Positions 4,551 to 20,064 of a DNA stretch of 32,000 bases are shown in pieces. The notes beneath the pieces were generated by a model. That model was given only the letters and a program-made list of their open reading frames with translations, was not told the origin of the DNA and did no database searches. This DNA is from Caldivirga maquilingensis IC-167 (GTDB lineage Archaea; Thermoproteota; Thermoprotei; Thermoproteales; Thermocladiaceae): the NCBI RefSeq assembly GCF_000018305.1, contig NC_009954.1:1170001-1202000 (forward strand), read 5' to 3'. A program made the position numbers and the translations under genes. Every line of letters begins with the position of its first letter. Positions within the stretch are counted from its first letter, which is position 1.

Positions 4551-5627
4551 ATGCCACAGGTTAGGAGGAGGGAGAAGGCTAGTGAGGAGGTGGAGGAGCC
4601 CATTGGGAATGAGGAGGACACTGAGGCGACCACTGAGCCGTCAGCGGCACCAGTGACCACTGCTCTCCAGTCTCCGTCACAGTCCTATGACGTTGAGGAA
4701 ATAGAGGGTGTTGGTAGGGTTACGGCCCAGAAGTTAAGGGAATCAGGCTACAATACTGCCTTAGACGTAGCCTACGCCGGTGTTAAGGAGCTTGCAGATG
4801 TACTTGGCAGTGAGGATAGGGCTAGGCAAATCATTGCAGCTGCCCAGAGGCTTGTTGGTTTAAACAACTTCGTGACTGCCCTTGAGGTTTATGAACGTAA
4901 GAGGAATGTTCAATACATTTCAACCGGCGTTAAGGCACTTGATGAACTGCTTGGTGGGGGTATTGAGACCAGGGCCATAACTGAGCTTGCCGGTGAATTC
5001 GGGTCGGGTAAGACTAACTTCTGCCATCAATTATCAGTAATGGTTCAGTTACCTGAGGATAAGGGTGGATTAAAGGGTAAGGCACTATTCATTGACACTG
5101 AGAATACGTTTAGACCTGAACGTATTGTTCAAATAGCTAAGTACAGGGGTCTTGACCCTAAGGAAGCGTTAAAGAACATCTTCTATGCAAGAGCCTACAA
5201 TAGTGATCACCAGATGCTCATAATTGATGAGGCCAAGAAGATAATTCCCAAGGAGAACATTAGGCTAATAGTCATTGATTCATTGGTGGCTCACTTCAGG
5301 TCAGAGTACCCTGGTAGGGAGAATCTTGCTGAGAGGCAGCAGAAGCTTAACCACCATATTGCTCAATTACTTAAGTTAGCGGATATATATAATGCAGCCG
5401 TGGTTGTTACTAATCAAGTAATAGCGCAGCCGGATATGTTCTTCGGAAACCCATTGAAGCCGGCTGGAGGCAATGTTATAGCTCATGGAGCCACGTATAG
5501 GATTTGGCTTAGGAAGGGTAAGGAGAATATTAGGGTTGCCAGGATCCTTGACTCACCAATGCACCCTGAGAGTGAGGCGACGTTTAAAATAACTGAAGAA
5601 GGGCTTATTGATGGTGAACCACAGTAG
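4551..5627 (+). CDS. radA: DNA repair and recombination protein RadA
   Basis: HhH region [12 protein letters not shown], Walker [15 protein letters not shown] and Walker B LIVIDS are present. The sequence aligns end to end with crenarchaeal RadA as I remember it. It has an extra acidic N-terminal extension of about 35-45 aa. Confidence 0.95.
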
Positions 5628-5754: not shown

Positions 5755-6642
5755 ATGAGTTTCCCACCAACATACATGAGGGTAGTGGAGGCGTTGCTGG
5801 AGCTGTATAATATGCATAAGAGGCCGATTAAGAGTAAGGAGATTGCTGATAAGTTAGGGATGAATGAGGGTACTATAAGGAACATTATGGTTGCCTTAAA
5901 GGCAATGAACCTAGTTGACAGTAAAACTGGGCCATACGGTGGATTCATACCGTCTCAGAAGGCTGTGGAATTCGTTAAGTCACCAATGGTTATTAATCCA
6001 GTTAACGACATTGCTCAAATATTCGTAAACGGTAAGCCAATTAACGTTTACGCCACTGGCATTGAGTTAGTGAACGTGTTTAACCCATACATGAGTAAGG
6101 CCATAATAAAAATCCTCGGTAATGTTAAGGCAATTCACCCAGGTGATAATGTTAGGATTGGTCCAACAATAAACGCCAGGATTATTATTGAAGGCATTGT
6201 GCTGGAGGATAATTCATTATCTAAGGAATTAGTAATAGTGATTAAGAAGCTCCTTGCAATACCGAAGATAAGGGTACTTGACGTTATGACTAAGGAATTA
6301 GCCGTGGTTAAGCATGATGAACCATTAACAAGTGTAGCTAAGTTAATAGCGGATAGGAAGATTAGGGCATTACCCGTTGTGAATGATAATGGTGAATTAA
6401 TAGGCTTAATAACAAGCTCAGACTTGGCGAGGGCCTTTAGTGATGGGGCCCTCACGGCATTGGTTAAGGATTACATGAGGCATGAAGTCCCCATAATAAG
6501 TTGGGATAGGGACATTTACGACGCCATGAGGCTAATGATGAGTTACAACATTGGTAGATTAATAGTGATTAACCAGGAGCAGAAACCGGTGGGTATAGTG
6601 ACTAGGACAGATATATTAAGGTACCTGGCACCCTTAGGTTAA
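5755..6642 (+). CDS. Putative transcriptional regulator: N-terminal wHTH plus C-terminal CBS domain pair
   Basis: The N-terminus (KSKEIADKLGMNEGTIRNIMVALKAMNLVDS) is HTH-like. The C-terminus has two CBS-type repeats (VMTKELAVVKHDEPL...ALPVVNDNGELIGLITSSDL and YMRHEVPIISWD...RLIVINQEQKPVGIVTRTDIL). Confidence 0.85.
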   Translation: MSFPPTYMRVVEALLELYNMHKRPIKSKEIADKLGMNEGTIRNIMVALKAMNLVDSKTGPYGGFIPSQKAVEFVKSPMVINPVNDIAQIFVNGKPINVYATGIELVNVFNPYMSKAIIKILGNVKAIHPGDNVRIGPTINARIIIEGIVLEDNSLSKELVIVIKKLLAIPKIRVLDVMTKELAVVKHDEPLTSVAKLIADRKIRALPVVNDNGELIGLITSSDLARAFSDGALTALVKDYMRHEVPIISWDRDIYDAMRLMMSYNIGRLIVINQEQKPVGIVTRTDILRYLAPLG

Positions 6643-9215: not shown

Positions 9216-10568
9216 ATGACTAGGAAAGTAGTCATAATAGGTGCCGGTGCCGCGGGTGCATCGGCGGCTGCTAGGGCTAGGAGACTTGACCCTGAGGCTG
9301 AGGTTACCCTTATTGATAAGGGGCCATTAATCAGTCACGCACCCTGTGGAATACCATACTACATAGGTGGTGTTGTTAAGGATGCTGGTGAATTAGCCGT
9401 ATATAGCCCGGAGGAATTCGCCAGGGAGAGGAGGATTAATGTTAGGGTTAACGCTGAGGCCATTGATGTTGATTCAAGTAACCGCATAGTGCTTGTTAAG
9501 GAGGGTAATAGTGTTGTTAAGTATGAGTGGGATGTCTTAATATTAGCCACTGGGGCTAAGCCAATAGTACCATCAATTGAGGGAAATGACTTGAGGGGTG
9601 TGTTGACGCTTAGGCTCCCCCATGAGGCAGGTAGGCTTAGGGAGGAGGCGTTGAGGGCTGATAAAGTGGCTGTAATTGGGGGTGGTTACATAGGCCTTGA
9701 ACTGGCTGAGGCCTTAAGGGCATTGGGTAAGAGGGTGATGCTCTTTGAAATGATGCCTCACGTCCTACCCTCAACCCTAGACGAGGACTTAGCTAAGCTA
9801 ATACATGATGAGTTAATTAAGAATAACGTGGAACTACACTTAAGCGAGAAGGTTGTAGGGTTCCGTGGTGTTAATGGGGAGGTTAAGAGTGTTATAACTG
9901 ATAAGGGTGAGTATAATGTTGATAAAGTATTCATGGGGGTGGGGGTTAGACCTGACGTGGACTTAGCCTTAAAGGCTGGTGTTAAGCTTGGTGAAACTGG
10001 TGCAGTTTACGTTAATGAGTACATGGAGACCAGTGTACCGGGTATTTACGCTGCGGGTGATGTGGCTGAGACGTGGAGTATGGTGACGGGGAGGAGGATG
10101 TATGTTGCCCTTGCCCCACCAGCCAATAAAATGGGTCAGGTGGCGGGTGCTAACGCGGTTAAGGGTAGGTTCCTAAAGTTCCCGGGGGTGCTTGGTACTG
10201 CGATAACTAAGGTGTTTAACCTATACGTGGCTAGGACAGGCTTAACGGAGAGGCAGGCTAGGGAATGGGGATTTAAACCATACTCAGCCACCGTTAAGGT
10301 TAAGACAACAGCCCACTACTACCCCGGGGGTGGTGTTGCCACAATAAGGCTTACAGCAGATGAGGATACTGGTAGGGTTATTGGAGCGCAGGTGATTGGT
10401 AATGATAGGCTCATTGCAGGTTACATTGATACTGCAGCAGCCTTAATAGGTAAGGGGGCTACTGTTGATGACTTCTTCTTCGCCGACTTATCCTACTCAC
10501 CGCCAACTGCACCTGTGTGGCATGGTTTAATAGTGGCTGCTAGGGTTCTCTCAAGGGGTAAGTATTAG
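9216..10568 (+). CDS. FAD-dependent pyridine nucleotide-disulfide oxidoreductase, NADH oxidase / CoA-disulfide reductase family
   Basis: FAD-binding GxGxxG (IIGAGAAGASAA), a single redox Cys in SHAPCGIPYY typical of Nox/CoADR, a second dinucleotide fold VIGGGYIGLE, and AAGD are present. Confidence 0.9.
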   Translation: MTRKVVIIGAGAAGASAAARARRLDPEAEVTLIDKGPLISHAPCGIPYYIGGVVKDAGELAVYSPEEFARERRINVRVNAEAIDVDSSNRIVLVKEGNSVVKYEWDVLILATGAKPIVPSIEGNDLRGVLTLRLPHEAGRLREEALRADKVAVIGGGYIGLELAEALRALGKRVMLFEMMPHVLPSTLDEDLAKLIHDELIKNNVELHLSEKVVGFRGVNGEVKSVITDKGEYNVDKVFMGVGVRPDVDLALKAGVKLGETGAVYVNEYMETSVPGIYAAGDVAETWSMVTGRRMYVALAPPANKMGQVAGANAVKGRFLKFPGVLGTAITKVFNLYVARTGLTERQAREWGFKPYSATVKVKTTAHYYPGGGVATIRLTADEDTGRVIGAQVIGNDRLIAGYIDTAAALIGKGATVDDFFFADLSYSPPTAPVWHGLIVAARVLSRGKY

Positions 10569-10672: not shown

Positions 10673-12484
10673 TCAAGGCACTTGATCAGTTAACTTAACC
10701 TTCTTCTGATTACTGTACATTTCAAATATCTCCTTAACCGTTGTTGCATCCTCCGGCCTCTTATCAGTCCTATACCTACCTGTGAACCTTGGGAACCTTA
10801 TAGCCAACCCCACGTCACCCTTAAGCATGACGGAGCAACAAGTGTGGAGTGGGGACATGGTTATCTCCGCGCCGGTTATCTCCAGCACTAGGCCTGGTGT
10901 GAACCATATGTCCGGCTCCATTTTCGAAACAACCCTGGGGTGTCTATGCGGTATTTTATATGGTTCAAGCATTTGAGGCAGCTTCTTTAGATCCTCATCA
11001 GTGAAGCCGCTCCCAACCTTGCATACTGTGTAGAATTGATCAGAGTCAGGGTCGTATGCGGCTAGGAGGAGTGCACCATAGGTTCCGGCTCTCTTACCGC
11101 GTCCCCAGAATGCCCCAACCACCACTAGATCCATTGTGTCTGATAACTCGCTCTTATAATCCCTCTTATACTTAATCCACAACCAACCCCTAGCCCCCAT
11201 TTCATAGACTGAGCCTAACTTAACTGACTTACACATGACGCCTTCACAACCTGACGATATTGCGTCCAGGAAGAACTTCTCCAGTGAATCCGCATCATCG
11301 GTTATTATCCAGTCGGCGTGGTGAACATGCTCATGTGGCTTAATTATTGAGAACAGTACCTTCTTCCTATCGGGTAGAGGTAGGTCTGTTAAGTCCTGTC
11401 CATTAACGTACATTACGTCGAATAAGTATAGGTTAATGGGGTACTCCTCAATAGCCTCCTTAATATTATGCTTCCTCTTCCTATGCATTAATTCCTGAAA
11501 CGGCTTAAACTCCCCTGTATCCGGGTCAATTGCAACACCCTCACCCTCAACTATGAATTCCTCAGCATCAATTGCCTCACGGGCGTACTCGGCTACATCA
11601 GGGTACTGGTTAGTTATATCCTCCATCCTCCTACTGAATATTTTAACAGTACCATCCTTAAGCTTATGTATCTGCATCCTCTCACCATCATACTTAAACT
11701 CACATATGGCAACCCCACCAAGCTTATTCAAAATCTCCTTAGGGCTACTTAACCTCTCAGCAAGCATAGGCTGTATAGGTACACCAGGCGTAACCTTAAT
11801 CGCCTTAACAGCCTCCTCACCCCCCTCAGCCAGTGTCTTAGCTATCTTACCGAGGTCCGGGTAAACGTGGTAAGCCTTCTCCAGTAAATCCCTATTAACA
11901 TCAAAGGCGTCTGATAAGGCATCTAGAATAGTCATGTCAGCCACCCCCAATCTTAACCTCCCTATGACGAATCTAGTAATGTACTTAGCCTCATCGGGTT
12001 CGGCATCAGTTAATAGACTTGACAGTAACTTAACCTTAGTGTCCTGGGCTCCTTCCCCAGATGCCTTTGCTATGGCCATTAAAGTGTCGTAGACCTTACT
12101 GATCGTTAGCCTCCTCTTAGGTCCAGTGTCAATGAAGTCGAATATAGTGCCACCACCCCCCTTACTCCTCTTAATCTCCGCAGCCCTCTTAGCCACCTCA
12201 CCTGCATCACCAAGCTTCTTATACAATTCCTCAACCTGCCTGATAGGTAAGCCAGTGGCCATGGATATTGCCCTAAGTGTTAGCCTTTCAGCTAAACCAA
12301 GCTCCACACCCTCCCAGTCAGGCCTAAGGCTACCCAGTAGGAAGTATATGACCTTATCAATGACCTGTGGTGGCGTTTTAGCAAGTAGGCTTGAGAGTGC
12401 CTTAGCCATAACAGTCCTCTGCGTTGTAGCCTCCACTAACTTAAGTACGGATACAATATTGGAGAATTCTAAGTCAGATTCCAC
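10673..12484 (-). CDS. lig: ATP-dependent DNA ligase
   Basis: 603 aa with a GTG start. The adenylation motif I is [13 protein letters not shown] (KxDG). The C-terminal OB-fold region is typical of archaeal Lig. Confidence 0.95.
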
Positions 12485-12636: not shown

Positions 12637-14373
12637 TCACTCGATGGTGAAGTCTTGGAATTCACCCTTATAACTACTCCACTTAATGTTTAATTCCCTC
12701 ACTTCCGCAATATTAATATTCCTCAGCGACTCTATGAACGCCTTAATATTACCCTCCTCCCCCTCAACAATTATGAGGACTGAACCATCCTCATTATTCC
12801 TAGCAAACCCTGTTAATCCAAGGGATTTAGCATTCCTCCTCACTAATGGCCTAAACCCAACCCCCTGAACCTTCCCCGTAACCATTATCTCAGCCCTCGC
12901 AAGCCTCAATGCTGCCTGTCTAGAGACGCCTTGAAGAATATTGGAGGCTATGGTTAGTTTAGTAAGCATAACCTTATCCTTAATATACCTAGTCACGTAG
13001 TCGGGAACTATTAGGGTGCCTTCACCCCTACCCACGACTTCACCTATCACCATTGGCTTTAAGCCAGGTATCTTCCCTAATTCATCTAATACATCATCAA
13101 CCAGTCCACTGGAGACCACTAGTGCCACTGCACCATTTGTGCCAGCGGTGGCGTCTGAAATAATGTAGTTTGATGCAGCGAATTCAGCAACCTCAGGGCT
13201 TATTAAAGGTATGTTACTTAACCTAATCTTAACATTAGCCGTCTCGGCGAGCTCCTTAAAGACAAATATCCCTGGGCCACTAATATCTATTGTTGCGGCA
13301 ACGTGTTCATCATCATTGAATCTCCGCCCAAGTTCAGGTAAGTGATTGTAAATTACCTTAGCAACATCAATGTTCGGTTTAGCCATTTGATTCAAGGCAT
13401 ACTCCTTAATCTCCTCAAGCTCATCAACAGTCATGACCTCCCTCTCAAACTTATCGTATAACTCCTCATCAACGTGAAGAGCAACGTAAGTCCCTATTAT
13501 GCTTAATTCACCGAAGGGCCTAGTTACAATAATCTTAAAACCCTCCTTAACCTCATTATAGAACATCGGTGGCTCCCTATCAAGCCTACTGGCCACCGTG
13601 GAGCCTATTAGTAAGTAACCTAGATTAGGCTGCTCAACATCATGCAGCCTCCCACCTAGCTCATTGACGTAAGCCTTAACCTCATTAAACAATCCATGCT
13701 TATACTCACCTGGTGCATCATACACTGGGTAGAATTCAAGGTCCTTAAAGGCACCCTTTGAGAATAAGTCATTGAGGGCATTATTTAATGCAACTGAGAC
13801 CTGTCTACGGGACGCTATTTCATCCATTGGATCTATGACTTGTATAGTATCATTGTTAACTAGGGTATAGGCATCATCCTTATTCTTAACCTTAATGAAA
13901 TCCAGGACATGAATACTGGCGTTGGGTTGAGTACTCACTATACTATGACCCTTACCTATAACTAACTCCTTATTAACCTTAGCCAGCTCCTTAAATAACC
14001 TTATCATAATGTTAGCGAATGAATCAGGATCGCTGGCGTTGCCTTGAAAAGACTCAACGAGTAGTATTAACGCATCAGGGTTAAAGTCACTAATAGTGTT
14101 AATGGGTAGCTTCGGTGAATCAACACTAGTTATAACCCTCATTAAATCTAATTCACTACCCCTGAGGACTGCCACATCCTCGCGTGGAGCTATTTTAATA
14201 TGTAATTCACCCAGTTCCCTCTTCACAATGGATAAAGCTGGGTAGAGCACGTTATAGAGGTCAACCTTAACGGAGCATCCCAATGCAAGTGAAGTTAAGT
14301 TAACCCCTATGGAGGCGTACTTACTAACATGCTTCAGGAATCTGCTCATTCTCTCTTCTTTACTTACCTTCAT
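12637..14373 (-). CDS. SelD/PurM-superfamily (selenophosphate-synthetase-like) protein with a large insertion and a C-terminal acylphosphatase domain
   Basis: SelD-like landmarks appear in order: N-terminal LALGCSVKV (the Cys-x-x-Lys loop), DVAVLRG...ITSVD, ALNNALNDLFSKGA, IIVTRPFGEL, ISGPGIFVFKEL and TNGAVALVV. The last ~90 aa (VTGKVQGVGFRPLVRRNAKSLGLTGFARNNEDGSVLIIVEG) carry the acylphosphatase signature. ATG 14373 sits behind a TATA box and is preferred; the track start at 14421 remains possible. Confidence 0.8.
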   Translation of the reverse strand: MKVSKEERMSRFLKHVSKYASIGVNLTSLALGCSVKVDLYNVLYPALSIVKRELGELHIKIAPREDVAVLRGSELDLMRVITSVDSPKLPINTISDFNPDALILLVESFQGNASDPDSFANIMIRLFKELAKVNKELVIGKGHSIVSTQPNASIHVLDFIKVKNKDDAYTLVNNDTIQVIDPMDEIASRRQVSVALNNALNDLFSKGAFKDLEFYPVYDAPGEYKHGLFNEVKAYVNELGGRLHDVEQPNLGYLLIGSTVASRLDREPPMFYNEVKEGFKIIVTRPFGELSIIGTYVALHVDEELYDKFEREVMTVDELEEIKEYALNQMAKPNIDVAKVIYNHLPELGRRFNDDEHVAATIDISGPGIFVFKELAETANVKIRLSNIPLISPEVAEFAASNYIISDATAGTNGAVALVVSSGLVDDVLDELGKIPGLKPMVIGEVVGRGEGTLIVPDYVTRYIKDKVMLTKLTIASNILQGVSRQAALRLARAEIMVTGKVQGVGFRPLVRRNAKSLGLTGFARNNEDGSVLIIVEGEEGNIKAFIESLRNINIAEVRELNIKWSSYKGEFQDFTIE

Positions 14374-14395
14374 CAATACCGCATTTCCTGTATTG

Positions 14396-14403
14396 AATTT
14401 AAA
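14396..14403 (-). promoter_or_regulatory. TATA-like box (TTTAAATT on the minus strand) for the SelD-like gene
   Basis: Centred about 26 nt upstream of ATG 14373. Confidence 0.4.
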
Positions 14404-14441
14404 GGAATGATCATTATGCATTTTATGCCTAGGTATTTCAC

Positions 14442-15585: not shown

Positions 15586-15589
15586 AACG

Positions 15590-15598
15590 TTTTAAATA
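15590..15598 (+). promoter_or_regulatory. TATA-like box (TTTTAAATA) for the Nre-like operon
   Basis: Lies about 30 nt upstream of GTG 15626. Confidence 0.45.
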
Positions 15599-15625: not shown

Positions 15626-16840
15626 GTGACTGGGATTAGGATAAGGCCTGAATTATGCTTGGCGTGTAAGGGATACAGGAACCTATGTGGATTACCCAAG
15701 TGCCCGCTCCTGGAGAGGAGGATTACGTTAAGTCGAATTGAAAAGTACATTAATGGTAATGTTAATGGGTCCTCACCCCCATCAGTGGTGGTTGGTGAGC
15801 ATGGTTACCCATTAGTAAGGGTTATGATTGGTATACCGCCTAACGTGCATGGTGATGCAGCCTCAAGTTACGATAACCCAAGTGAATGGTGGGGTAGGTT
15901 AAGTTTATTCGATATTATTAGGCTTAGGTCATCCATGGTTGCTGCATCAACCACTGTTAAGGTTAATAACGTTGATAAACTCTATGATAATGAATTAGCA
16001 CCAGCATCAGTATCAGAGCGGCCTGTGGATATGGAGGCTTTACTTAAGGGTAAGTTAACTGGAGTCAGCATTAATGAACTACTAGCCCCCACTCCCCCCT
16101 CAGTTAGGGCGTTGAGTATTAGGATTAATGATAATCCCAAGGTACCTAAGCCCATTGAGAAGTTAATCAACGATGATGCTGAGGCCAATGATGCTGTTTG
16201 GGAGGCCTACAGGGCAGGGATTAGTGTTTACTCATTAATAAGGGCATTATCAGTGGGTATGCTGGGTAGGAGGAGGAATCGAAGACTAGTACCCACTAGG
16301 TGGGCCATTACTGCTGTGGATTCAATCATAGGTAATAGATTGAGGAGTAGAATCAAGTCAATGCCTGAGTTAAGCGAGGATCTACTCTTCTACGGCGAAT
16401 ACCTGGGTAATAGATTCATTATAGTGCTTAGGCCTGGTGCATATAGGGCTAGGTGGATTGAATTATGGTACCCGTCCTCAGCCCTTGTCCTAGGTAATGA
16501 GGCTGCTGTTCACGTTGTTGATGAGGATTATAGGGGTAGGGTTAATGACATGGATGGTGGCTTTTACGCAGCTAGGTTATCTGCATTAGAGTACCTTAGT
16601 AGGATTGGTAAATCAGCTGAAGTAATAATATTTAGGGAGGTTCTTCCAGAGTACTTCGCAACGGTTGGTAATTGGCATATTAGGGAGACTGTTAGGAGGG
16701 CTTTTGAGAAGGGCCCAATTAGTAAGGGTGATGAAGTTTACTCAACATTAGTTAATTTACTTAAAAGCAAGGAAATAGTAAAATACATGCCCAGTAGGCT
16801 TAATCGTATTACAGATTACATGGGTGTTAATAATGGTTAA
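15626..16840 (+). CDS. Nre-family (NreA/NreB-like) putative DNA-repair protein
   Basis: 404 aa with a GTG start. The N-terminal Cys cluster CLACKGYRNLCGLPKCPLL and the overall length match my recollection of the archaeal Nre family (former DUF650/DUF651). No search was run. Confidence 0.65.
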   Translation: MTGIRIRPELCLACKGYRNLCGLPKCPLLERRITLSRIEKYINGNVNGSSPPSVVVGEHGYPLVRVMIGIPPNVHGDAASSYDNPSEWWGRLSLFDIIRLRSSMVAASTTVKVNNVDKLYDNELAPASVSERPVDMEALLKGKLTGVSINELLAPTPPSVRALSIRINDNPKVPKPIEKLINDDAEANDAVWEAYRAGISVYSLIRALSVGMLGRRRNRRLVPTRWAITAVDSIIGNRLRSRIKSMPELSEDLLFYGEYLGNRFIIVLRPGAYRARWIELWYPSSALVLGNEAAVHVVDEDYRGRVNDMDGGFYAARLSALEYLSRIGKSAEVIIFREVLPEYFATVGNWHIRETVRRAFEKGPISKGDEVYSTLVNLLKSKEIVKYMPSRLNRITDYMGVNNG

Positions 16841-17534
16841 GGTGAAGCCAATAACTGAGGTGGAGACACTGATATTCCATAACATACTAGCCATAGTGCT
16901 TCTAGTACTCATGGTGATGCTCTACGACATCCTAGCCAGATACATGTTCAGAGTACCAATAGGTGTGGGTACTTCATTATCAATTCTACTATTCCTCCTA
17001 TTGGTTTCATCAGCAATGGTTCTACTCACCAGGGTCTATGTTAGGGAGAGGATTATAACCTGTAGAAACGCCAACAGCCTAGTAGGCGGTGTTACGGCGT
17101 TACTGTATATTTCAATATACTCAGCCTTAACCTACCAGTCACCCTATGCTATGGCTGCAGCTGTATTAATGGGTATTGTATTAGGCTTCGGAGTATACAT
17201 GACAACCCTGGTTGATGCCTCAATATGCCAAAAGATACCAAGCATTAGTATTAGTTTAATTGATCCTCAGCTTGAGTTTAATAAGGTCATACTGGTGAGG
17301 AATAGGGTTACAGTGGGGAGTGGTAGGGATAGTGATGTAATCCTACCTGTTAAGGCGGCTGACTTATTCATTACAATAATTAACAATAAGGGTAAGGTAA
17401 CTGTTACCGGTAAGGGTCTCATGATTGAGGATAAGGGTAAGCTTAGGAGCATTGATTCAGTGGAGATAGGTGTGGGTGAATCCTACATCATATGGATTAA
17501 CAATGTTAAGGTTAAGTTAACCCGCCTAAGCTAA
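16833..17534 (+). CDS. Membrane protein (4-5 TM) with a degenerate C-terminal FHA-like domain
   Basis: ATG 16833 overlaps the Nre-like stop by 8 nt (ATGGTTAA). The C-terminus VTVGSGRDSDVILP...VEIGVGESYIIW has the FHA G-R...D..L and terminal beta pattern but lacks the SxxH and NG motifs. Confidence 0.55.
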   Translation: MVKVKPITEVETLIFHNILAIVLLVLMVMLYDILARYMFRVPIGVGTSLSILLFLLLVSSAMVLLTRVYVRERIITCRNANSLVGGVTALLYISIYSALTYQSPYAMAAAVLMGIVLGFGVYMTTLVDASICQKIPSISISLIDPQLEFNKVILVRNRVTVGSGRDSDVILPVKAADLFITIINNKGKVTVTGKGLMIEDKGKLRSIDSVEIGVGESYIIWINNVKVKLTRLS

Positions 17535-17583
17535 GCTTAATTTAATAATACTTAAGAGTGTACACTGGGCTAAAAGCATATAA

Positions 17584-18024
17584 ATGCCCACTGGATTAGA
17601 TGCCGCGATGCATAATAATAAGGGTAATGCCACCCTTAACGTTAAGGATCTAGGAGCAGAAACAACCAGCCGTGTTGAGCAGAAGCCGGTGAAAAGGATT
17701 AGAATAACCTTCATAGAATCAACCACTGACTCACTTAAGAACACAGCTGTGGATCTTGACGTAGTGTACTTCGATTCAATAACCATAGGAAGGGCACCGG
17801 ACAACATAGTGGTTATACCTGATATAACGGTTTCAAGGAGGCATGCAGTAATATCCAGGGACTCCAGTGGTTCAATAGTTCTAGTTGACTTAAACAGTAA
17901 GAATGGTACATACGTGTATAATAATGGTGTTTTTGAACGCGTTAATAAGGTTGAATTAAAGGATGGAATAGTGATAAGGCTAGGCATATACACTATAATA
18001 AGGATAAATCTGATTCAGGGATAA
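17584..18024 (+). CDS. FHA domain protein
   Basis: A canonical FHA signature is present: ITIGRAPDNIVVIPDITVSRRHAVI...LVDLNSKNGTYV...LKDGIVIRLG. Confidence 0.85.
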   Translation: MPTGLDAAMHNNKGNATLNVKDLGAETTSRVEQKPVKRIRITFIESTTDSLKNTAVDLDVVYFDSITIGRAPDNIVVIPDITVSRRHAVISRDSSGSIVLVDLNSKNGTYVYNNGVFERVNKVELKDGIVIRLGIYTIIRINLIQG

Positions 18025-18094
18025 GATCCAAGGCACTGTAACTAGTAATTAAGTAATATGCCTCATGATTGAATACGTGTACTAAGTAACCATG

Positions 18095-18377
18095 CCTGAC
18101 CACTCGCCCTGGAGGGTTGGGTTTTCTTTGGACGGCTTATTGGCTTGTGGTTTACCGTCTTCATTCTCACTGCTTCACTGCCGGTGGGGGCTTCCCTTCA
18201 CCCTGCTCTGCTCGTCCAGCGGTAGACCACGGGCTAGGTCTTCAGCCCAATTACCCCTATCCCTCCATGGGACTCGGGGGTATGTGGAGTGGTCCCTCAT
18301 GTGGGAACACTTGAGTAAACCATCATAAACCCCACCATGAGAATGAATCCCCTACACAGGATAACCCCACCAATCCC
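18095..18377 (-). ncRNA. GC-rich structured ncRNA; candidate SRP (7S) RNA, class unconfirmed
   Basis: This is the only strongly GC-rich island in the window, and no credible ORF lies in it. Long-range complementarity forms a rod: 18098-18105 pairs with 18287-18294 (8 bp), 18111-18116 with 18261-18266 (6 bp), and 18147-18157 with 18220-18230 (10 of 11). A local hairpin lies at 18231-18248. The 5' part has two hairpins with GGUGGGG loops and a UGUAG element reminiscent of an SRP Alu domain. A TATA-like box lies about 25 nt upstream. The strand call rests on these motifs and on the promoter. Confidence 0.5.
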
Positions 18378-18402
18378 AATAAAGCATTAAACCCTACCCC
18401 GC

Positions 18403-18410
18403 CTTAAAAA
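18403..18410 (-). promoter_or_regulatory. TATA-like box (TTTTTAAG on the minus strand) upstream of the structured RNA
   Basis: It would place the transcription start near 18377 (GGGAUUGG...). Confidence 0.4.
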
Positions 18411-18453
18411 GGTGAAGCTCACCGTCCTTTGTCACACGCTTAAGTTAAATTGG

Positions 18454-20040
18454 TTAGGATTGTAGAGGGGTTGTTAAGATGCTTAGTACAGTAATAACCT
18501 CATCAATGCTTGGACGCATTTGAGGATTCATGCTTAGGCTTCTCAGTATAATGTCGGTGAGTAGTGGGGGTATGTGTGGATCCATGGGTGGTGTAATGCC
18601 TCTTAAGATGTATTGCTGTGGGTTAAAACCCATGAGCATCTCATACATTATTAAACCCAGGGAGTATACGTCAGCCCTATCCGTGGCTGCCTTATTCATG
18701 AGAACCTCAGGGGCTGAGTATGCTAGGGAGAATTGAGATATTTCAACACTCTGCCCTGCGTAAACCCTTGAAGCCCCTAAGTCACCGAGCTTAACTACCC
18801 TCCTATTCTTATCCTTGAATAGGACGTTCTCAGGCTTAAGATCAAGGTGAAGCATACCCATGCTGTGTAATTCCTTTAAGGCAATAGCCACCTCATACGC
18901 AATTCTAACAGCCTCACCTACACTTAGTTTTCCCTTCTCCCTAAGGTAACGTCTCAATGACCCATACTCCATGTAATCCATAACTATGTATGGTGGATCC
19001 TCCAGGTAAGACTCCAGGTTCCTGTAGGGTAATTTATCCTCATTTATGTGTATTTCATAAACCTTAACCACCCTATCACTGTTAACTAGTAGGTAACTGG
19101 TCATCTCTCTCTTAAAGGATTGAACAACCTTCAAGTCACTGGCTAAGGGAGTGTTACTAGGGCTGGTGTATCTGAGAACCTTAATGGCGTACTTCTCATT
19201 ACCGTAACGACCCAGTAACACGTAGCTGAATCCCCCAGTGTCAATAACCTTCTCAACGTAGTAACGGCCACCAATCCATGCATCAACCCATGTTTCAGGC
19301 GGCGGCACACCCCTATGGTATCTCACTTTCCTGAATGTTGCCAGTGCCGGTATTAGTAGGAGTGATGCTTGGGGGATAAAGATTAGTGAGGTTGATGATA
19401 ATGCAATAGCTAAAGCCCGCTTAAGCCTACTTGACTTAACCATTGGTATCGTTAACACGAAGCTCGCTAAAATGCTTAGTGAAGCTTGAAATAAACTGGG
19501 TTTTAATCTTTGACTAAGTAGAATTAGTATAAGTGGGAGTATTGAGAGAATATACATTACCCAGGATGGGTACCTGTAGGTTGATTGAAGAGGACCATTG
19601 TAGGCTCTTATCGTAATGTACATTAGCAGTAGGAAGCTGAATATCATGTATATTAAGGAGTATGTAGCGGCTGATGAAGCAACCACAAGTACGTAGTAGA
19701 CTCCAACTAGGAGGTAACGTGACCAGGCTGGTAATTGAATTACAGTTAATGAAACAGCTATTGAAACCCCCACCATTACTACCAGTTCACTTATGAACCC
19801 CAGTGAATTAAGGTTACTGTATGTGATTAAGGCCAGGGCCAGGTACAGTGCGCTTATTGTTGCGTAATTCTTAGCGAAGGGGAATAGGAGTACTGGAAGC
19901 ATGGTTAAGGTGGTTGCTATTATCATAATCATGCTCTCATTAAACGTTATCCCAACTGCCGTTACCAATACTGCTAAGGCTAGGGTTTCAGTAATCCTCT
20001 CAATCAAGTCATAGTAACTGTACCTTGGTTCACTGCGCAT
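18454..20040 (-). CDS. Membrane-anchored Hanks-type Ser/Thr protein kinase
   Basis: The N-terminal ~260 aa are polytopic, with at least 8 hydrophobic helices. The C-terminal kinase domain has the G-loop GGFSYV, the Lys in YAIKV, the catalytic loop HLDLKPENV, DLG and SAPE. ATG 20040 is preferred because the only TATA box lies 8 nt from the track start at 20058. Confidence 0.9.
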   Translation of the reverse strand: MRSEPRYSYYDLIERITETLALAVLVTAVGITFNESMIMIIATTLTMLPVLLFPFAKNYATISALYLALALITYSNLNSLGFISELVVMVGVSIAVSLTVIQLPAWSRYLLVGVYYVLVVASSAATYSLIYMIFSFLLLMYITIRAYNGPLQSTYRYPSWVMYILSILPLILILLSQRLKPSLFQASLSILASFVLTIPMVKSSRLKRALAIALSSTSLIFIPQASLLLIPALATFRKVRYHRGVPPPETWVDAWIGGRYYVEKVIDTGGFSYVLLGRYGNEKYAIKVLRYTSPSNTPLASDLKVVQSFKREMTSYLLVNSDRVVKVYEIHINEDKLPYRNLESYLEDPPYIVMDYMEYGSLRRYLREKGKLSVGEAVRIAYEVAIALKELHSMGMLHLDLKPENVLFKDKNRRVVKLGDLGASRVYAGQSVEISQFSLAYSAPEVLMNKAATDRADVYSLGLIMYEMLMGFNPQQYILRGITPPMDPHIPPLLTDIILRSLSMNPQMRPSIDEVITVLSILTTPLQS

Positions 20041-20064
20041 TTCAGTTAAGCAACCCATGTAGGG

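What the first reader, a model, noticed from the sequence alone, without database searches (positions are those of the whole stretch)
15626..20058. Nre-like DNA-repair gene translationally coupled to two FHA proteins, facing a polytopic membrane Hanks kinase
Seen in sequence:
- The Nre-like ORF, with an N-terminal CxxC...C...C cluster, ends 8 nt inside the start of a 4-5 TM protein with a degenerate FHA-like C-terminus.
- 50 nt further on lies a soluble protein with a textbook FHA domain (GR...SRRH...NGT).
- Convergent to this trio is a kinase whose N-terminal half is at least 8 TM helices and whose C-terminal half has all the Hanks motifs.
Established knowledge:
- FHA domains read phosphothreonine.
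- In Sulfolobus, FHA/kinase pairs (ArnA/B with ArnC/D) control motility.
- In eukaryotes, FHA proteins are the core of DNA-damage checkpoints.
- NreA has been implicated in DNA-damage tolerance in haloarchaea.
Inference: this may be a phospho-dependent signalling module linking a membrane sensor kinase to an Nre-type repair factor. To my knowledge no such coupling has been described in archaea.
Basis: partly seen in the sequence, partly recalled or inferred. Interest (0 to 1): 0.7.

Follow-up and report, generated by a model that had tools for sequence, protein, structure and literature searches.

The report
Archaeal membrane kinase–FHA pair beside Nre
In the hot-spring archaeon Caldivirga maquilingensis, a conserved membrane protein kinase and its phosphothreonine-reader (FHA) partner lie next to a DNA-repair gene (Nre), but that adjacency is found only in this genus, so a kinase-to-repair link has no comparative support.

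Summary
All four genes exist as described, in Caldivirga maquilingensis.
- **Nre:** Pfam Nre_N 6e-93 and Nre_C 1e-22, with a Cys4 cluster.
- **ORF2:** a 233-aa membrane protein overlapping the nre stop by 8 nt. Its C-terminus is predicted to have an FHA fold but lacks the phosphothreonine-binding residues.
- **FHA protein:** canonical small FHA (PF00498, 9e-20).
- **Kinase:** convergent, with 8–9 N-terminal helices and a C-terminal non-RD Hanks domain.

The proposed Nre-centred signalling module is not backed by comparative genomics.
- The four-gene arrangement occurs only in Caldivirga, where general synteny is also conserved.
- In Thermocladium, Nre, the ORF2 homologue and the kinase homologue sit at three separate loci.
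- In Vulcanisaeta and two or three unnamed relatives, the kinase abuts or overlaps the small FHA gene tail-to-tail in different surroundings, without Nre or ORF2.
- None of 84 other archaeal Nre loci has an FHA, kinase or ORF2 gene within about 8 kb.

The supported unit is therefore a family-specific FHA/kinase pair, which in Caldivirga lies beside a genus-specific nre–orf2 operon.

The GC-rich 430-nt gap between FHA and kinase is a remnant of an IS200/IS605 tnpB 3′ end and right end. It is absent from other Caldivirga species.

Modest interest: a new variant of a known kind.

The parts
15589..15598 (+). TATA-like box (TTTTAAATA) about 30 nt upstream of the nre GTG. Putative promoter of a leaderless nre-orf2 transcript.
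   Evidence: Read directly from the sequence. Promoter function is inferred from the usual archaeal spacing and was not tested.
15626..16840 (+). nre: Nre-family protein (404 aa) with an N-terminal Cys4 cluster and a degenerate C-terminal PIP-like tail (…LNRITDYMGVNNG).
   Evidence: Pfam Nre_N 6.3e-93 and Nre_C 9.9e-23. NCBI names it 'Nre family DNA repair protein [Caldivirga maquilingensis]'. Cys columns and C-terminal motif in the alignment.
16833..17534 (+). orf2: 233-aa membrane protein with four TM helices and a cytoplasmic FHA-fold domain lacking the phosphothreonine-binding residues (pseudo-FHA). Its start overlaps the nre stop by 8 nt, with GGTG 8 nt upstream as a possible Shine-Dalgarno.
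   Evidence: Sequence overlap. AlphaFold model. Foldseek top hits are all FHA domains. No Pfam, NCBIfam or PADLOC hit. The family is tiny: 9 hits and 8 hits in an exhaustive HMM search of 1.8 billion proteins. Binding residues are not conserved.
17575..17584 (+). TATA-like box (CATATAAATG region) about 28 nt upstream of ATG 17608. Putative own promoter of the FHA gene.
   Evidence: Sequence. All orthologues begin at the Met corresponding to 17608. Inferred, not tested.
17608..18024 (+). Small soluble FHA protein (138 aa from ATG 17608; the ORF is open from 17584, giving 146 aa). It has a canonical FHA domain plus a tail of about 50 aa containing ETTS.
   Evidence: PF00498 9.1e-20. GR / SR[RK]H / NGT are invariant in 7 orthologues. 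Orthologues are paired with the kinase in other genera.
18085..18415 (-). Remnant of an IS200/IS605-family element: the last ~65 codons of tnpB/orfB, disrupted by stops and a frameshift, plus a right-end hairpin (core 18095-18300). It is a GC-rich insertion specific to C. maquilingensis and is not part of the signalling genes.
   Evidence: 56-61% GC against a 43% background. blastn to the 3' end of the IS605 orfB in Sulfolobus virus SMV1: 76.5% over 161 nt, E=2e-23; to ISDka2 in HAV2: 90.9% over 55 nt. tblastn to OrfB aa 390-432: 56% identity with in-frame stops. Conserved hairpins. Absent from the same spacer in other Caldivirga. The left boundary is approximate.
18454..20040 (-). Polytopic membrane Ser/Thr kinase (528 aa from ATG 20040; the ORF is open to 20058). 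It has about 8-9 TM helices, a conserved juxtamembrane motif [KR]GxxPPxxWxxxWxxG[RK][YF], and a non-RD Hanks kinase domain.
   Evidence: Pkinase 3.6e-39. Hydropathy and juxtamembrane motif in 21/21 homologues. Motif alignment. Homologues with the same architecture come from Caldivirga, Vulcanisaeta and Thermocladium, as far as sources name them.

Best explanation
The region holds two units that happen to be adjacent in the genus Caldivirga.

**Unit A: a conserved FHA/kinase pair.** This is a convergent gene pair specific to Caldivirga and its relatives (Vulcanisaeta and unnamed related MAGs).
- One gene encodes a membrane kinase. Its N-terminal 8-9-helix domain presumably senses a membrane or envelope-associated signal. 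Its C-terminal non-RD Hanks domain phosphorylates Ser/Thr in the cytoplasm.
- The other encodes a small FHA-only adaptor with an intact phosphothreonine pocket. It reads a phosphothreonine made by that kinase and relays the state by binding a partner.
- The phosphothreonine may lie in the adaptor's own N-terminal [ED]-T-[TS] tail, giving a GarA/OdhI-style on/off switch, or in a third protein.

**Unit B: a Caldivirga-specific two-gene operon, nre-orf2.**
- Nre is the PCNA-associated repair factor.
- ORF2 is a four-helix membrane protein whose cytoplasmic FHA-fold domain has lost the phosphate-binding residues. It most likely acts as a phospho-independent interaction scaffold.

**Shown**
- Domain identities and the FHA fold of ORF2.
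- Conservation of the kinase-FHA pair across genera in different contexts.
- Absence of any Nre linkage outside Caldivirga.

**Inferred**
- That the kinase phosphorylates, and the FHA protein binds, in one pathway.
- The sensing role of the TM domain and the GarA-like tail switch.
- The promoters and transcription units.
- That Nre is not an output of the pathway.
For: **Kinase-FHA pair conserved outside Caldivirga**
- The pair is tail-to-tail and abutting in L093 (32-nt overlap), L095 (14-nt overlap), L096 from Vulcanisaeta sp. JCM 14467 (2-nt gap) and L101.
- Flanking genes differ (MatE/hydantoinase; ribosomal S26e/acylphosphatase), and neither Nre nor ORF2 is present.
- FHA orthologues keep GR, SR[RK]H and NGT invariant.
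- The kinase keeps its catalytic motifs and a family-specific juxtamembrane motif in 21/21 homologues.

**Nre linkage is genus-specific**
- It is seen in all Caldivirga loci with enough sequence (L086, L088-L091). L087 carries nre-orf2 to the contig end, and L100 carries orf2-FHA-kinase.
- Thermocladium Nre loci lack all three partners.
- The Thermocladium ORF2 homologue sits alone.
- The Thermocladium kinase homologue sits next to TPR and Roadblock genes.
- 0 of 84 other Nre loci have FHA, kinase or ORF2. The FHA profile's sensitivity was 80/80 on controls.

**Other points**
- ORF2 has an FHA fold but lacks the binding residues. The Arg of G-R is Lys in 7 of the 8 homologues aligned, S-x-x-H is replaced, and N-G-T is K-G-L.
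- A separate TATA-like box lies upstream of the FHA gene.
- The kinase-FHA spacer is short in other Caldivirga (22-109 nt). It is enlarged here only by an IS remnant.
Against: - The nre-orf2 8-nt overlap is conserved throughout Caldivirga even where ORF2 has diverged to 64% identity. Co-expression of Nre with an FHA-fold membrane protein is therefore real and could be functional.
- orf2 lies directly upstream of the FHA gene in every Caldivirga locus, so ORF2 may belong to unit A rather than unit B.
- No Thr is conserved in the cytoplasmic part of the kinase. The activation segment has S-Q-F-S, so the FHA docking site is unknown.
- The ETTS-like tail motif is only semi-conserved. It is absent in L093.
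- Only four or five non-Caldivirga kinase loci were examined, and one (Thermocladium) lacks the FHA neighbour.
- No expression or biochemical data exist.
- Gene-order evidence cannot exclude a lineage-specific functional recruitment of Nre.
Confidence: 0.6

Rival explanations
1. In Caldivirga the four genes form one DNA-damage signalling module. The membrane kinase phosphorylates a component, the FHA and FHA-like proteins read it, and the activity or localisation of Nre (a PCNA-bound repair factor) is controlled as the output.
For: - Conserved nre-orf2 overlap and the fixed order nre-orf2-FHA-kinase in all Caldivirga loci.
- ORF2 has an FHA fold.
- FHA proteins act in the archaeal DNA-damage response in Saccharolobus: ArnA (PMC10470591).
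- NreA is needed for repair of mitomycin C damage in Haloferax (PMC4929162).
- DNA ligase and RadA genes lie within 10 kb.
Against: - There is no Nre-FHA or Nre-kinase linkage in 84 other archaeal Nre loci, including Thermocladium.
- The kinase-FHA pair exists without Nre in Vulcanisaeta and relatives.
- Synteny within the genus extends to unrelated flanking genes, so it carries little weight.
- The ORF2 pseudo-FHA lacks phosphothreonine-binding residues.
- The FHA gene seems to have its own promoter.
- No paper links Nre and FHA.
Confidence: 0.12
2. A three-protein membrane signalling complex of ORF2, FHA protein and kinase, analogous to the mycobacterial FhaA/FhaB(FipA)-PknA/PknB arrangement. 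Nre is merely co-transcribed with orf2 because orf2 landed behind it.
For: - orf2 is always immediately upstream of the FHA gene in Caldivirga, including the short metagenome contig L100.
- Both ORF2 and the kinase are polytopic membrane proteins with cytoplasmic domains.
- The FHA protein's best NCBIfam resemblance is FhaB/FipA, though below the cut-off.
- The positive-inside loop RVYVRER places the ORF2 FHA-like domain in the cytoplasm (sequence).
Against: - The ORF2 family is absent from the Vulcanisaeta-type kinase-FHA loci.
- In Thermocladium the ORF2 homologue is unlinked to the kinase.
- The ORF2 and kinase TM regions show no detectable similarity.
- ORF2 cannot bind phosphothreonine in the canonical way.
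Confidence: 0.25
3. All adjacencies, including kinase-FHA, are accidents of a compact genome with no functional meaning.
For: - Archaeal genomes are gene-dense.
- The Thermocladium kinase homologue has no FHA neighbour.
Against: - The kinase-FHA convergent pair recurs in at least three non-Caldivirga lineages with unrelated flanking genes.
- FHA domains are dedicated readers of Ser/Thr-kinase products (established knowledge; PMC5007285).
Confidence: 0.03

Closest known systems
Sulfolobus tokodaii kinase ST1565 (STK_15650) with FHA protein ST0829, and the ArnA/ArnB-ArnC/ArnD network of Sulfolobales (including ArnA's role in the DNA-damage response of Saccharolobus islandicus)
   Same: A crenarchaeal Hanks-type Ser/Thr kinase working with a phosphothreonine-reading FHA protein. 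The FHA binding residues (R, S, N) shown to matter in ST0829 are present here (PMC5007285, PMC10470591).
   Different: - The FHA protein here has no zinc ribbon or DNA-binding part, and no vWA (ArnB/ArnE) partner gene is nearby.
- The kinase has an 8-9-helix N-terminal membrane domain and is non-RD.
- The kinase and FHA genes form a conserved convergent pair.
- Nothing ties it to archaellum or ups genes.
Actinobacterial FHA/kinase systems: FhaA and membrane-anchored FhaB/FipA with PknA/PknB, and the small FHA switches GarA/OdhI
   Same: - One membrane-anchored and one soluble FHA-type protein are encoded beside a membrane Hanks kinase.
- The small FHA-only protein has an N-terminal tail carrying ETTS, the same four residues phosphorylated in GarA/OdhI (own knowledge).
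- Foldseek and NCBIfam best resemblances include FhaB, OdhI and GarA.
   Different: - All NCBIfam scores are far below the family cut-offs: 51 vs 125 bits for FhaB and 40 vs 200 for OdhI.
- The ETTS motif is only semi-conserved.
- ORF2 has four TM helices N-terminal to a degenerate FHA, not an FHA followed by one TM helix.
- Kinase topology is inverted, with the membrane domain N-terminal.
- The resemblance is analogy, not orthology.
NreA of Haloferax volcanii / archaeal Nre family (PF04894 + PF04895)
   Same: Same two-domain family, about 400 aa, an N-terminal Cys4 cluster as in many non-halophilic Nre proteins, and a C-terminal PIP-like tail (PMC4929162).
   Different: - The PIP-like motif lacks the canonical Gln (…LNRITDYM).
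- The haloarchaeal equivalog model is not reached: 235 vs 700 bits.
- The only gene-neighbour link reported for Nre is NreB with SplB-like radical-SAM genes, not FHA or kinase (PMC4929162).
- No biochemical activity is known for any Nre.
Phospho-independent FHA-like domains of membrane machines (T3SS YscD/PrgH cytoplasmic domain PF16697; T7SS EssC N-terminal domains)
   Same: The ORF2 C-terminal domain has the FHA beta-sandwich but lacks the conserved Arg/Ser/His/Asn pocket, and it is attached to a membrane anchor. YscD-type and EssC entries appear among the structural matches, and PF16697 is the only, insignificant, Pfam hint.
   Different: - There are no secretion-system genes nearby.
- Domain order and TM number differ.
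- The family is limited to Caldivirga and Thermocladium plus a few unnamed fragments.
IS200/IS605 (IS1341-type) tnpB 3' end / right end, the region that encodes the omega/sot RNA
   Same: The GC-rich island matches the 3' end of orfB and the right-end hairpin of IS elements in SMV1 and HAV2 at nucleotide level. It also gives a weak hit to Rfam sot0042 on the same strand.
   Different: There is no intact tnpB or tnpA. The reading frame is broken, and only about 200-330 nt remain. Whether an RNA is still made is unknown.

Membership tests
Archaeal Nre family (Nre_N PF04894 + Nre_C PF04895) | Both Pfam domains above their gathering scores, in N-to-C order, in a protein of about 400 aa. | tested here: met
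   Nre_N 311.9 bits (cut-off 25) at residues 20-285. Nre_C 80.6 bits (cut-off 27) at residues 304-369.
Archaeal Nre family (Nre_N PF04894 + Nre_C PF04895) | N-terminal Cys4 metal-binding cluster. It is common but not universal in the family (PMC4929162). | tested here: met
   C11, C14, C21 and C26 align with invariant or near-invariant Cys columns of 17 Nre proteins.
Archaeal Nre family (Nre_N PF04894 + Nre_C PF04895) | C-terminal PIP motif and PCNA binding (NreA type). | tested here: inconclusive
   The C-terminal …LNRITDYMGVNNG aligns with Qxx[IL]Dx[FW] tails of other Nre proteins but lacks the Gln. PCNA binding cannot be tested with these tools.
FHA domain (PF00498), soluble protein 17584/17608-18024 | Pfam match above the gathering score, plus the phosphothreonine-binding residues (Gly-Arg, Ser-x-x-His, Asn-Gly-Thr). 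| tested here: met
   71.3 bits against a cut-off of 20.7. GR, SRRH and NGT are invariant in 7 orthologues.
FHA domain, ORF2 C-terminus (residues ~137-231) | FHA beta-sandwich fold. | tested here: met
   AlphaFold pLDDT 72-85 over the domain. The 34 best Foldseek PDB matches are FHA domains, prob 1.00. This rests on a predicted structure, not a solved one.
FHA domain, ORF2 C-terminus (residues ~137-231) | Sequence-profile membership and a conserved phosphothreonine pocket. | tested here: not met
   No Pfam hit at E<=0.01; best is PF16697 at E=0.15. hhalign against the true FHA family gives E=0.046. The pocket Arg is Lys in 7 of the 8 homologues aligned, S-x-x-H is absent, and N-G-T is K-G-L.
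Hanks-type (eukaryotic-like) Ser/Thr protein kinase | Pkinase profile above threshold, with a catalytic Lys (VAIK-type), an HxD catalytic loop with Asn, DFG-type Mg-binding Asp, and APE. | tested here: met
   135.2 bits against a cut-off of 31.7. YAIK, HLDLKPEN, DLG and SAPE are conserved in homologues. The variants are HLD (non-RD) and DLG.
ArnA/ArnB-type motility/DDR repressor module | An FHA protein with an N-terminal zinc ribbon, encoded with a vWA-domain partner. | tested here: not met
   The FHA protein has no Cys-rich N-terminus and only FHA-type Pfam hits. No vWA gene appears among the neighbours annotated.
GarA/OdhI small FHA regulators | Equivalog-level similarity, plus a conserved N-terminal ETTS phospho-acceptor that binds its own FHA domain. 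| tested here: not met
   NCBIfam OdhI 40.2 bits against a cut-off of 200. ETTS is present in C. maquilingensis, but orthologues read ETTR, EATS, DTS and TETE, and L093 has none. The intramolecular switch cannot be tested here.
   The arrangement is present only in Caldivirga. It is absent in Thermocladium, in Vulcanisaeta-type loci and in 84 other Nre loci.
IS200/IS605 element (GC-rich island 18085-18415) | Intact tnpB (and tnpA) between left and right ends. | tested here: not met
   Only the last ~65 codons of orfB are recognisable, with stops and a frameshift. No other TnpB similarity is found in the window. The 3'-end and right-end homology itself is significant at E=2e-23.

The most novel reading that the evidence does not exclude
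In the Caldivirga lineage, the ancestral kinase-FHA pair was recruited next to nre. The membrane pseudo-FHA protein ORF2, co-translated with Nre, would tether or hand over Nre (and through it PCNA-bound repair complexes) under control of the membrane kinase. That would be the first phospho-regulated Nre pathway and a membrane-to-chromosome damage or stress checkpoint in an archaeon.
Probability: 0.1. Interest if true: 0.65.

Novelty: new variant of a known kind. Interest (0 to 1): 0.3.

Why it matters
Ser/Thr phosphorylation is the main signalling currency of Crenarchaeota, which lack two-component systems (PMC5007285). Very few kinase-reader pairs are defined, and all come from Sulfolobales.

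This locus offers three things for Thermoproteales.
- **A conserved, genetically paired kinase and FHA reader.** The kinase has an unusual architecture: a large N-terminal polytopic sensor, a family-specific juxtamembrane motif and a non-RD catalytic loop. This makes a clean candidate pair for biochemistry.
- **A tiny family of membrane-anchored pseudo-FHA proteins.**
- **A correction to an attractive idea.** The evidence does not support an Nre-centred checkpoint, and Nre's biochemical function remains an open question.

Tried and rejected
- **GC-rich spacer as a structured RNA.** Rfam at gathering and at E<=10 thresholds, and ARAGORN, gave no family or tRNA. I first suspected a structured ncRNA because the + strand folds with z=-2.95. 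I rejected this after the IS605 orfB 3'-end homology on the − strand was found.
- **Exact 25-mer from the island against metagenomes:** no hit. An 18-mer against viral contigs gave one 18-nt match only, which is not informative.
- **PADLOC:** only generic kinase-domain hits (mad6, PD-T4-6) and nothing for Nre, ORF2 or FHA, so a defence-system reading was rejected.
- **Kinase membrane domain.**
  - It has no Pfam or NCBIfam family.
  - The AlphaFold model is poor (pLDDT 55).
  - Foldseek against PDB gave nothing (all E>0.5).
  - The afdb50 library was unavailable.
  - What the kinase senses therefore remains unknown.
- **ORF2 TM region against the kinase TM region:** no similarity.
- **ORF2 FHA-like domain as a recent duplicate of the neighbouring FHA gene:** rejected, on two grounds. 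hhalign gives E=0.046. ORF2 also exists on its own in Thermocladium.
- **Conserved phospho-acceptor Thr on the kinase for FHA docking:** none found.
- **Vulcanisaeta thermophila kinase P0150:** its context could not be retrieved because the gene is not on record.

Full report
**1. What is there**

The window comes from Caldivirga maquilingensis. Sources give this name for the 100%-identical ORF2, Nre and kinase proteins. The same contig was recovered from a public run.

Six-frame ORF listing gives four genes:
- Nre, 15626-16840 (+)
- an overlapping ORF, 16824/16833-17534 (+)
- an FHA ORF, 17584-18024 (+)
- a convergent 534-aa ORF, 18454-20058 (−)

Pfam results:
- Nre: Nre_N 6.3e-93 and Nre_C 9.9e-23
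- third ORF: FHA 9.1e-20
- fourth ORF: Pkinase 3.6e-39 at residues 268-522
- second ORF: nothing

Flanking genes are ordinary and unrelated: aldose 1-epimerase, TusA, an acylphosphatase fusion protein, Dph2 and DUF72.

**2. The individual proteins**

*Nre.* It carries the Cys4 cluster on conserved columns and a C-terminal PIP-like tail without the canonical Gln. Published knowledge on the family (PMC4929162):
- Haloferax NreA is needed for repair of mitomycin C damage in a PIP- and PCNA-dependent way, in the UvrABC pathway.
- No biochemical activity is known.
- The only gene-neighbour association reported is NreB with SplB-like genes.

*ORF2 (233 aa).*
- It starts at an ATG that overlaps the nre stop by 8 nt, with GGTG eight bases upstream.
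- An AlphaFold model built on nine orthologues has four membrane helices of low confidence and a confident C-terminal beta-sandwich.
- Foldseek against PDB returns FHA domains for the first 34 matches, including CT664, Rv1747, OdhI, GarA and MDC1.
- Sequence evidence is weak. No Pfam hit was found, and hhalign against the true FHA family gives E=0.046, although in the correct register.
- The pocket residues are not kept. The Arg is Lys in 7 of the 8 homologues aligned, S-x-x-H is missing, and N-G-T is K-G-L.
- ORF2 is therefore a membrane-anchored pseudo-FHA.
- The basic loop RVYVRER between helices 2 and 3, with four helices in total, places the domain in the cytoplasm. This is an inference from the positive-inside rule.
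- The family is tiny:
  - nine proteins of 64-100% identity, those with names from Caldivirga;
  - only eight hits in an exhaustive profile search of 1.84 billion representatives;
  - the only full-length outlier comes from Thermocladium.

*FHA protein.*
- Seven orthologues keep GR, SR[RK]H and NGT invariant.
- All orthologues begin at the Met equivalent to 17608, and ATATAAAT lies about 28 nt upstream. The gene is probably 138 aa with its own promoter.
- The tail of about 50 residues contains ETTS, the four residues phosphorylated in GarA/OdhI (own knowledge). The motif is only semi-conserved: ETTR, EATS, DTS, TETE, and none in L093.

*Kinase.*
- It is non-RD (HLD), with DLG for DFG, YAIK and SAPE.
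- A juxtamembrane motif [KR]GxxPPxxWxxxWxxG[RK][YF] is present in 21 of 21 homologues.
- Hydropathy gives at least eight peaks, and a low-confidence model gives nine to ten helices.
- Neither profile libraries nor Foldseek say anything about the membrane domain.
- No Thr is conserved in the cytoplasmic part; the activation segment carries S-Q-F-S.
- Full-length homologues, as far as sources name them, come only from Caldivirga, Vulcanisaeta and Thermocladium. Below them the hits drop to generic kinase-domain similarity.
- A shared TATA-like element between the kinase and Dph2 fits a start at ATG 20040 (528 aa), as in the NCBI model.

**3. Is the neighbourhood conserved?**

*Within Caldivirga.* ORF2 identity falls as low as 64%, yet the order epimerase-nre-orf2-FHA→←kinase-Dph2 is kept, including the 8-nt overlap. 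A short metagenome contig shows orf2-FHA-kinase. The unrelated flanking genes are also syntenic, so this says little about function.

*Outside the genus, the pieces separate.*
- **Thermocladium.**
  - Nre lies between FAD oxidoreductases and an ornithine/arginine decarboxylase gene.
  - The ORF2 homologue sits alone.
  - The kinase homologue sits beside TPR and Roadblock genes.
- **Vulcanisaeta sp. JCM 14467 (L096) and unnamed relatives (L093, L095, L101).** The kinase is convergent with a 130-151-aa FHA gene, and the 3′ ends abut or overlap. Flanking genes differ, and Nre and ORF2 are absent.

*Broad baseline.*
- An Nre profile scan of one genome per species returned 593 loci. The 80 kept span Thermoproteota, methanogens, Thermococci, Bathyarchaeia and others.
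- Neither single-sequence nor profile searches found an FHA, Hanks kinase or ORF2 gene in them or in four further Nre loci.
- The FHA profile detected 80 of 80 FHA-bearing control loci.

The conserved unit is therefore the kinase-FHA pair. The Nre association is a feature of one genus.

**4. The gap between the FHA and kinase genes**

- The spacer is 429 nt here, against 22, 64 and 109 nt in other Caldivirga.
- It contains a 56-61% GC island in a 43% GC genome.
- Rfam and ARAGORN found nothing.
- blastn against phage and virus records matched the 3′ end of IS200/IS605 orfB genes: SMV1, 76.5% over 161 nt, E=2e-23; ISDka2 in HAV2, 90.9% over 55 nt.
- On the − strand, the last ~65 codons of a TnpB are recognisable, with two in-frame stops and a frameshift.
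- The conserved hairpins and the right-end hairpin align with the viral IS copies.
- The weak Rfam hit to sot0042, a sense-overlapping transcript of IS1341-type transposase genes, lies on the same strand.

The island is an IS remnant inserted between the two convergent genes in this species only. It is not part of the signalling genes.

**5. Mechanism and comparison**

The best-supported reading is a membrane sensor kinase with a dedicated small FHA reader.
- The closest archaeal precedents are ST1565/ST0829 and the Arn network (PMC5007285).
- The closest architectural analogy is the actinobacterial design of soluble and membrane FHA proteins with PknA/PknB, and the GarA/OdhI switches.
- The FHA protein is not a member of those families: scores are far below the cut-offs, there is no zinc ribbon, and there is no vWA partner.
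- ORF2 most resembles the phospho-independent FHA-like domains of membrane machines.

The conserved nre-orf2 overlap is the one observation in its favour.

An FHA role in the archaeal DNA-damage response is already published for ArnA (PMC10470591). No paper in the searchable library links Nre with FHA.

**6. Verdict**

- Novelty: a new variant of a known kind.
- Interest is modest (0.3).

Noticed in passing
window 18085-18415 (− strand; core 18095-18300): A GC-rich island (56-61% GC against 43%) between the FHA and kinase stop codons. It is a remnant of an IS200/IS605 tnpB 3' end plus right-end hairpin, homologous at nucleotide level to IS copies in Sulfolobus virus SMV1 and HAV2. It is absent from the same spacer in other Caldivirga species. 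It may still encode an omega/sot-like RNA downstream of the kinase gene.
   Followed up: partly
window 17584 vs 17608; 20058 vs 20040: The longest-ORF starts are probably too long. FHA orthologues all begin at the Met of 17608, with a TATA-like box about 28 nt upstream. The kinase probably begins at 20040 (528 aa, as in the NCBI model), about 30 nt from a TATA-like element shared with the divergent Dph2 gene.
   Followed up: partly
L093 7580-7611; L095 7616-7629; L096 7653-7656; L101 ~6332-6357: Outside Caldivirga, the convergent kinase and FHA genes overlap or abut at their 3' ends (32-nt and 14-nt overlaps, 2-nt gap). Their transcripts must run into each other, so antisense or transcriptional interference between the pair is conceivable.
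   Followed up: no
L082/L083/L084 4457-4960 (Thermocladium Nre loci): A dual-specificity/PTP-type protein phosphatase gene lies about 3 kb upstream of Thermocladium nre, separated by two FAD-oxidoreductase genes. This is probably coincidence, but it is the only phospho-signalling gene seen near any non-Caldivirga Nre.
   Followed up: no
window 12637-14421 (−); L095 5677-5952; L096 5461-5736: A 594-aa protein with a C-terminal acylphosphatase domain and a weak AIR-synthase-related (PurM-like) C-domain hit lies next to a TusA gene. In the two Vulcanisaeta-type loci, a stand-alone 91-aa acylphosphatase is divergently adjacent to the kinase gene.
   Followed up: no
window 4551-5627 (+) and 10673-12484 (−): RadA/Rad51 recombinase and ATP-dependent DNA ligase genes lie about 10 kb and 3 kb upstream of nre. 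The ligase-…-nre order is kept in other Caldivirga (L088-L090). This is a loose grouping of DNA-metabolism genes and has not been tested for significance.
   Followed up: no
L084 2230-3597 (−): One Thermocladium assembly has an intact IS605 OrfB/Cas12f-like TnpB gene inserted a few kb from nre that is missing in two sister assemblies. This shows the element family is active in this clade.
   Followed up: no
L001 3592-4943 vs window 9216-10568: The Logan assembly of the same strain splits a pyridine-nucleotide-disulfide oxidoreductase gene into two ORFs (145 + 305 aa). The gene is intact (450 aa) in the window and in relatives, so this is most likely an assembly error in that record.
   Followed up: partly
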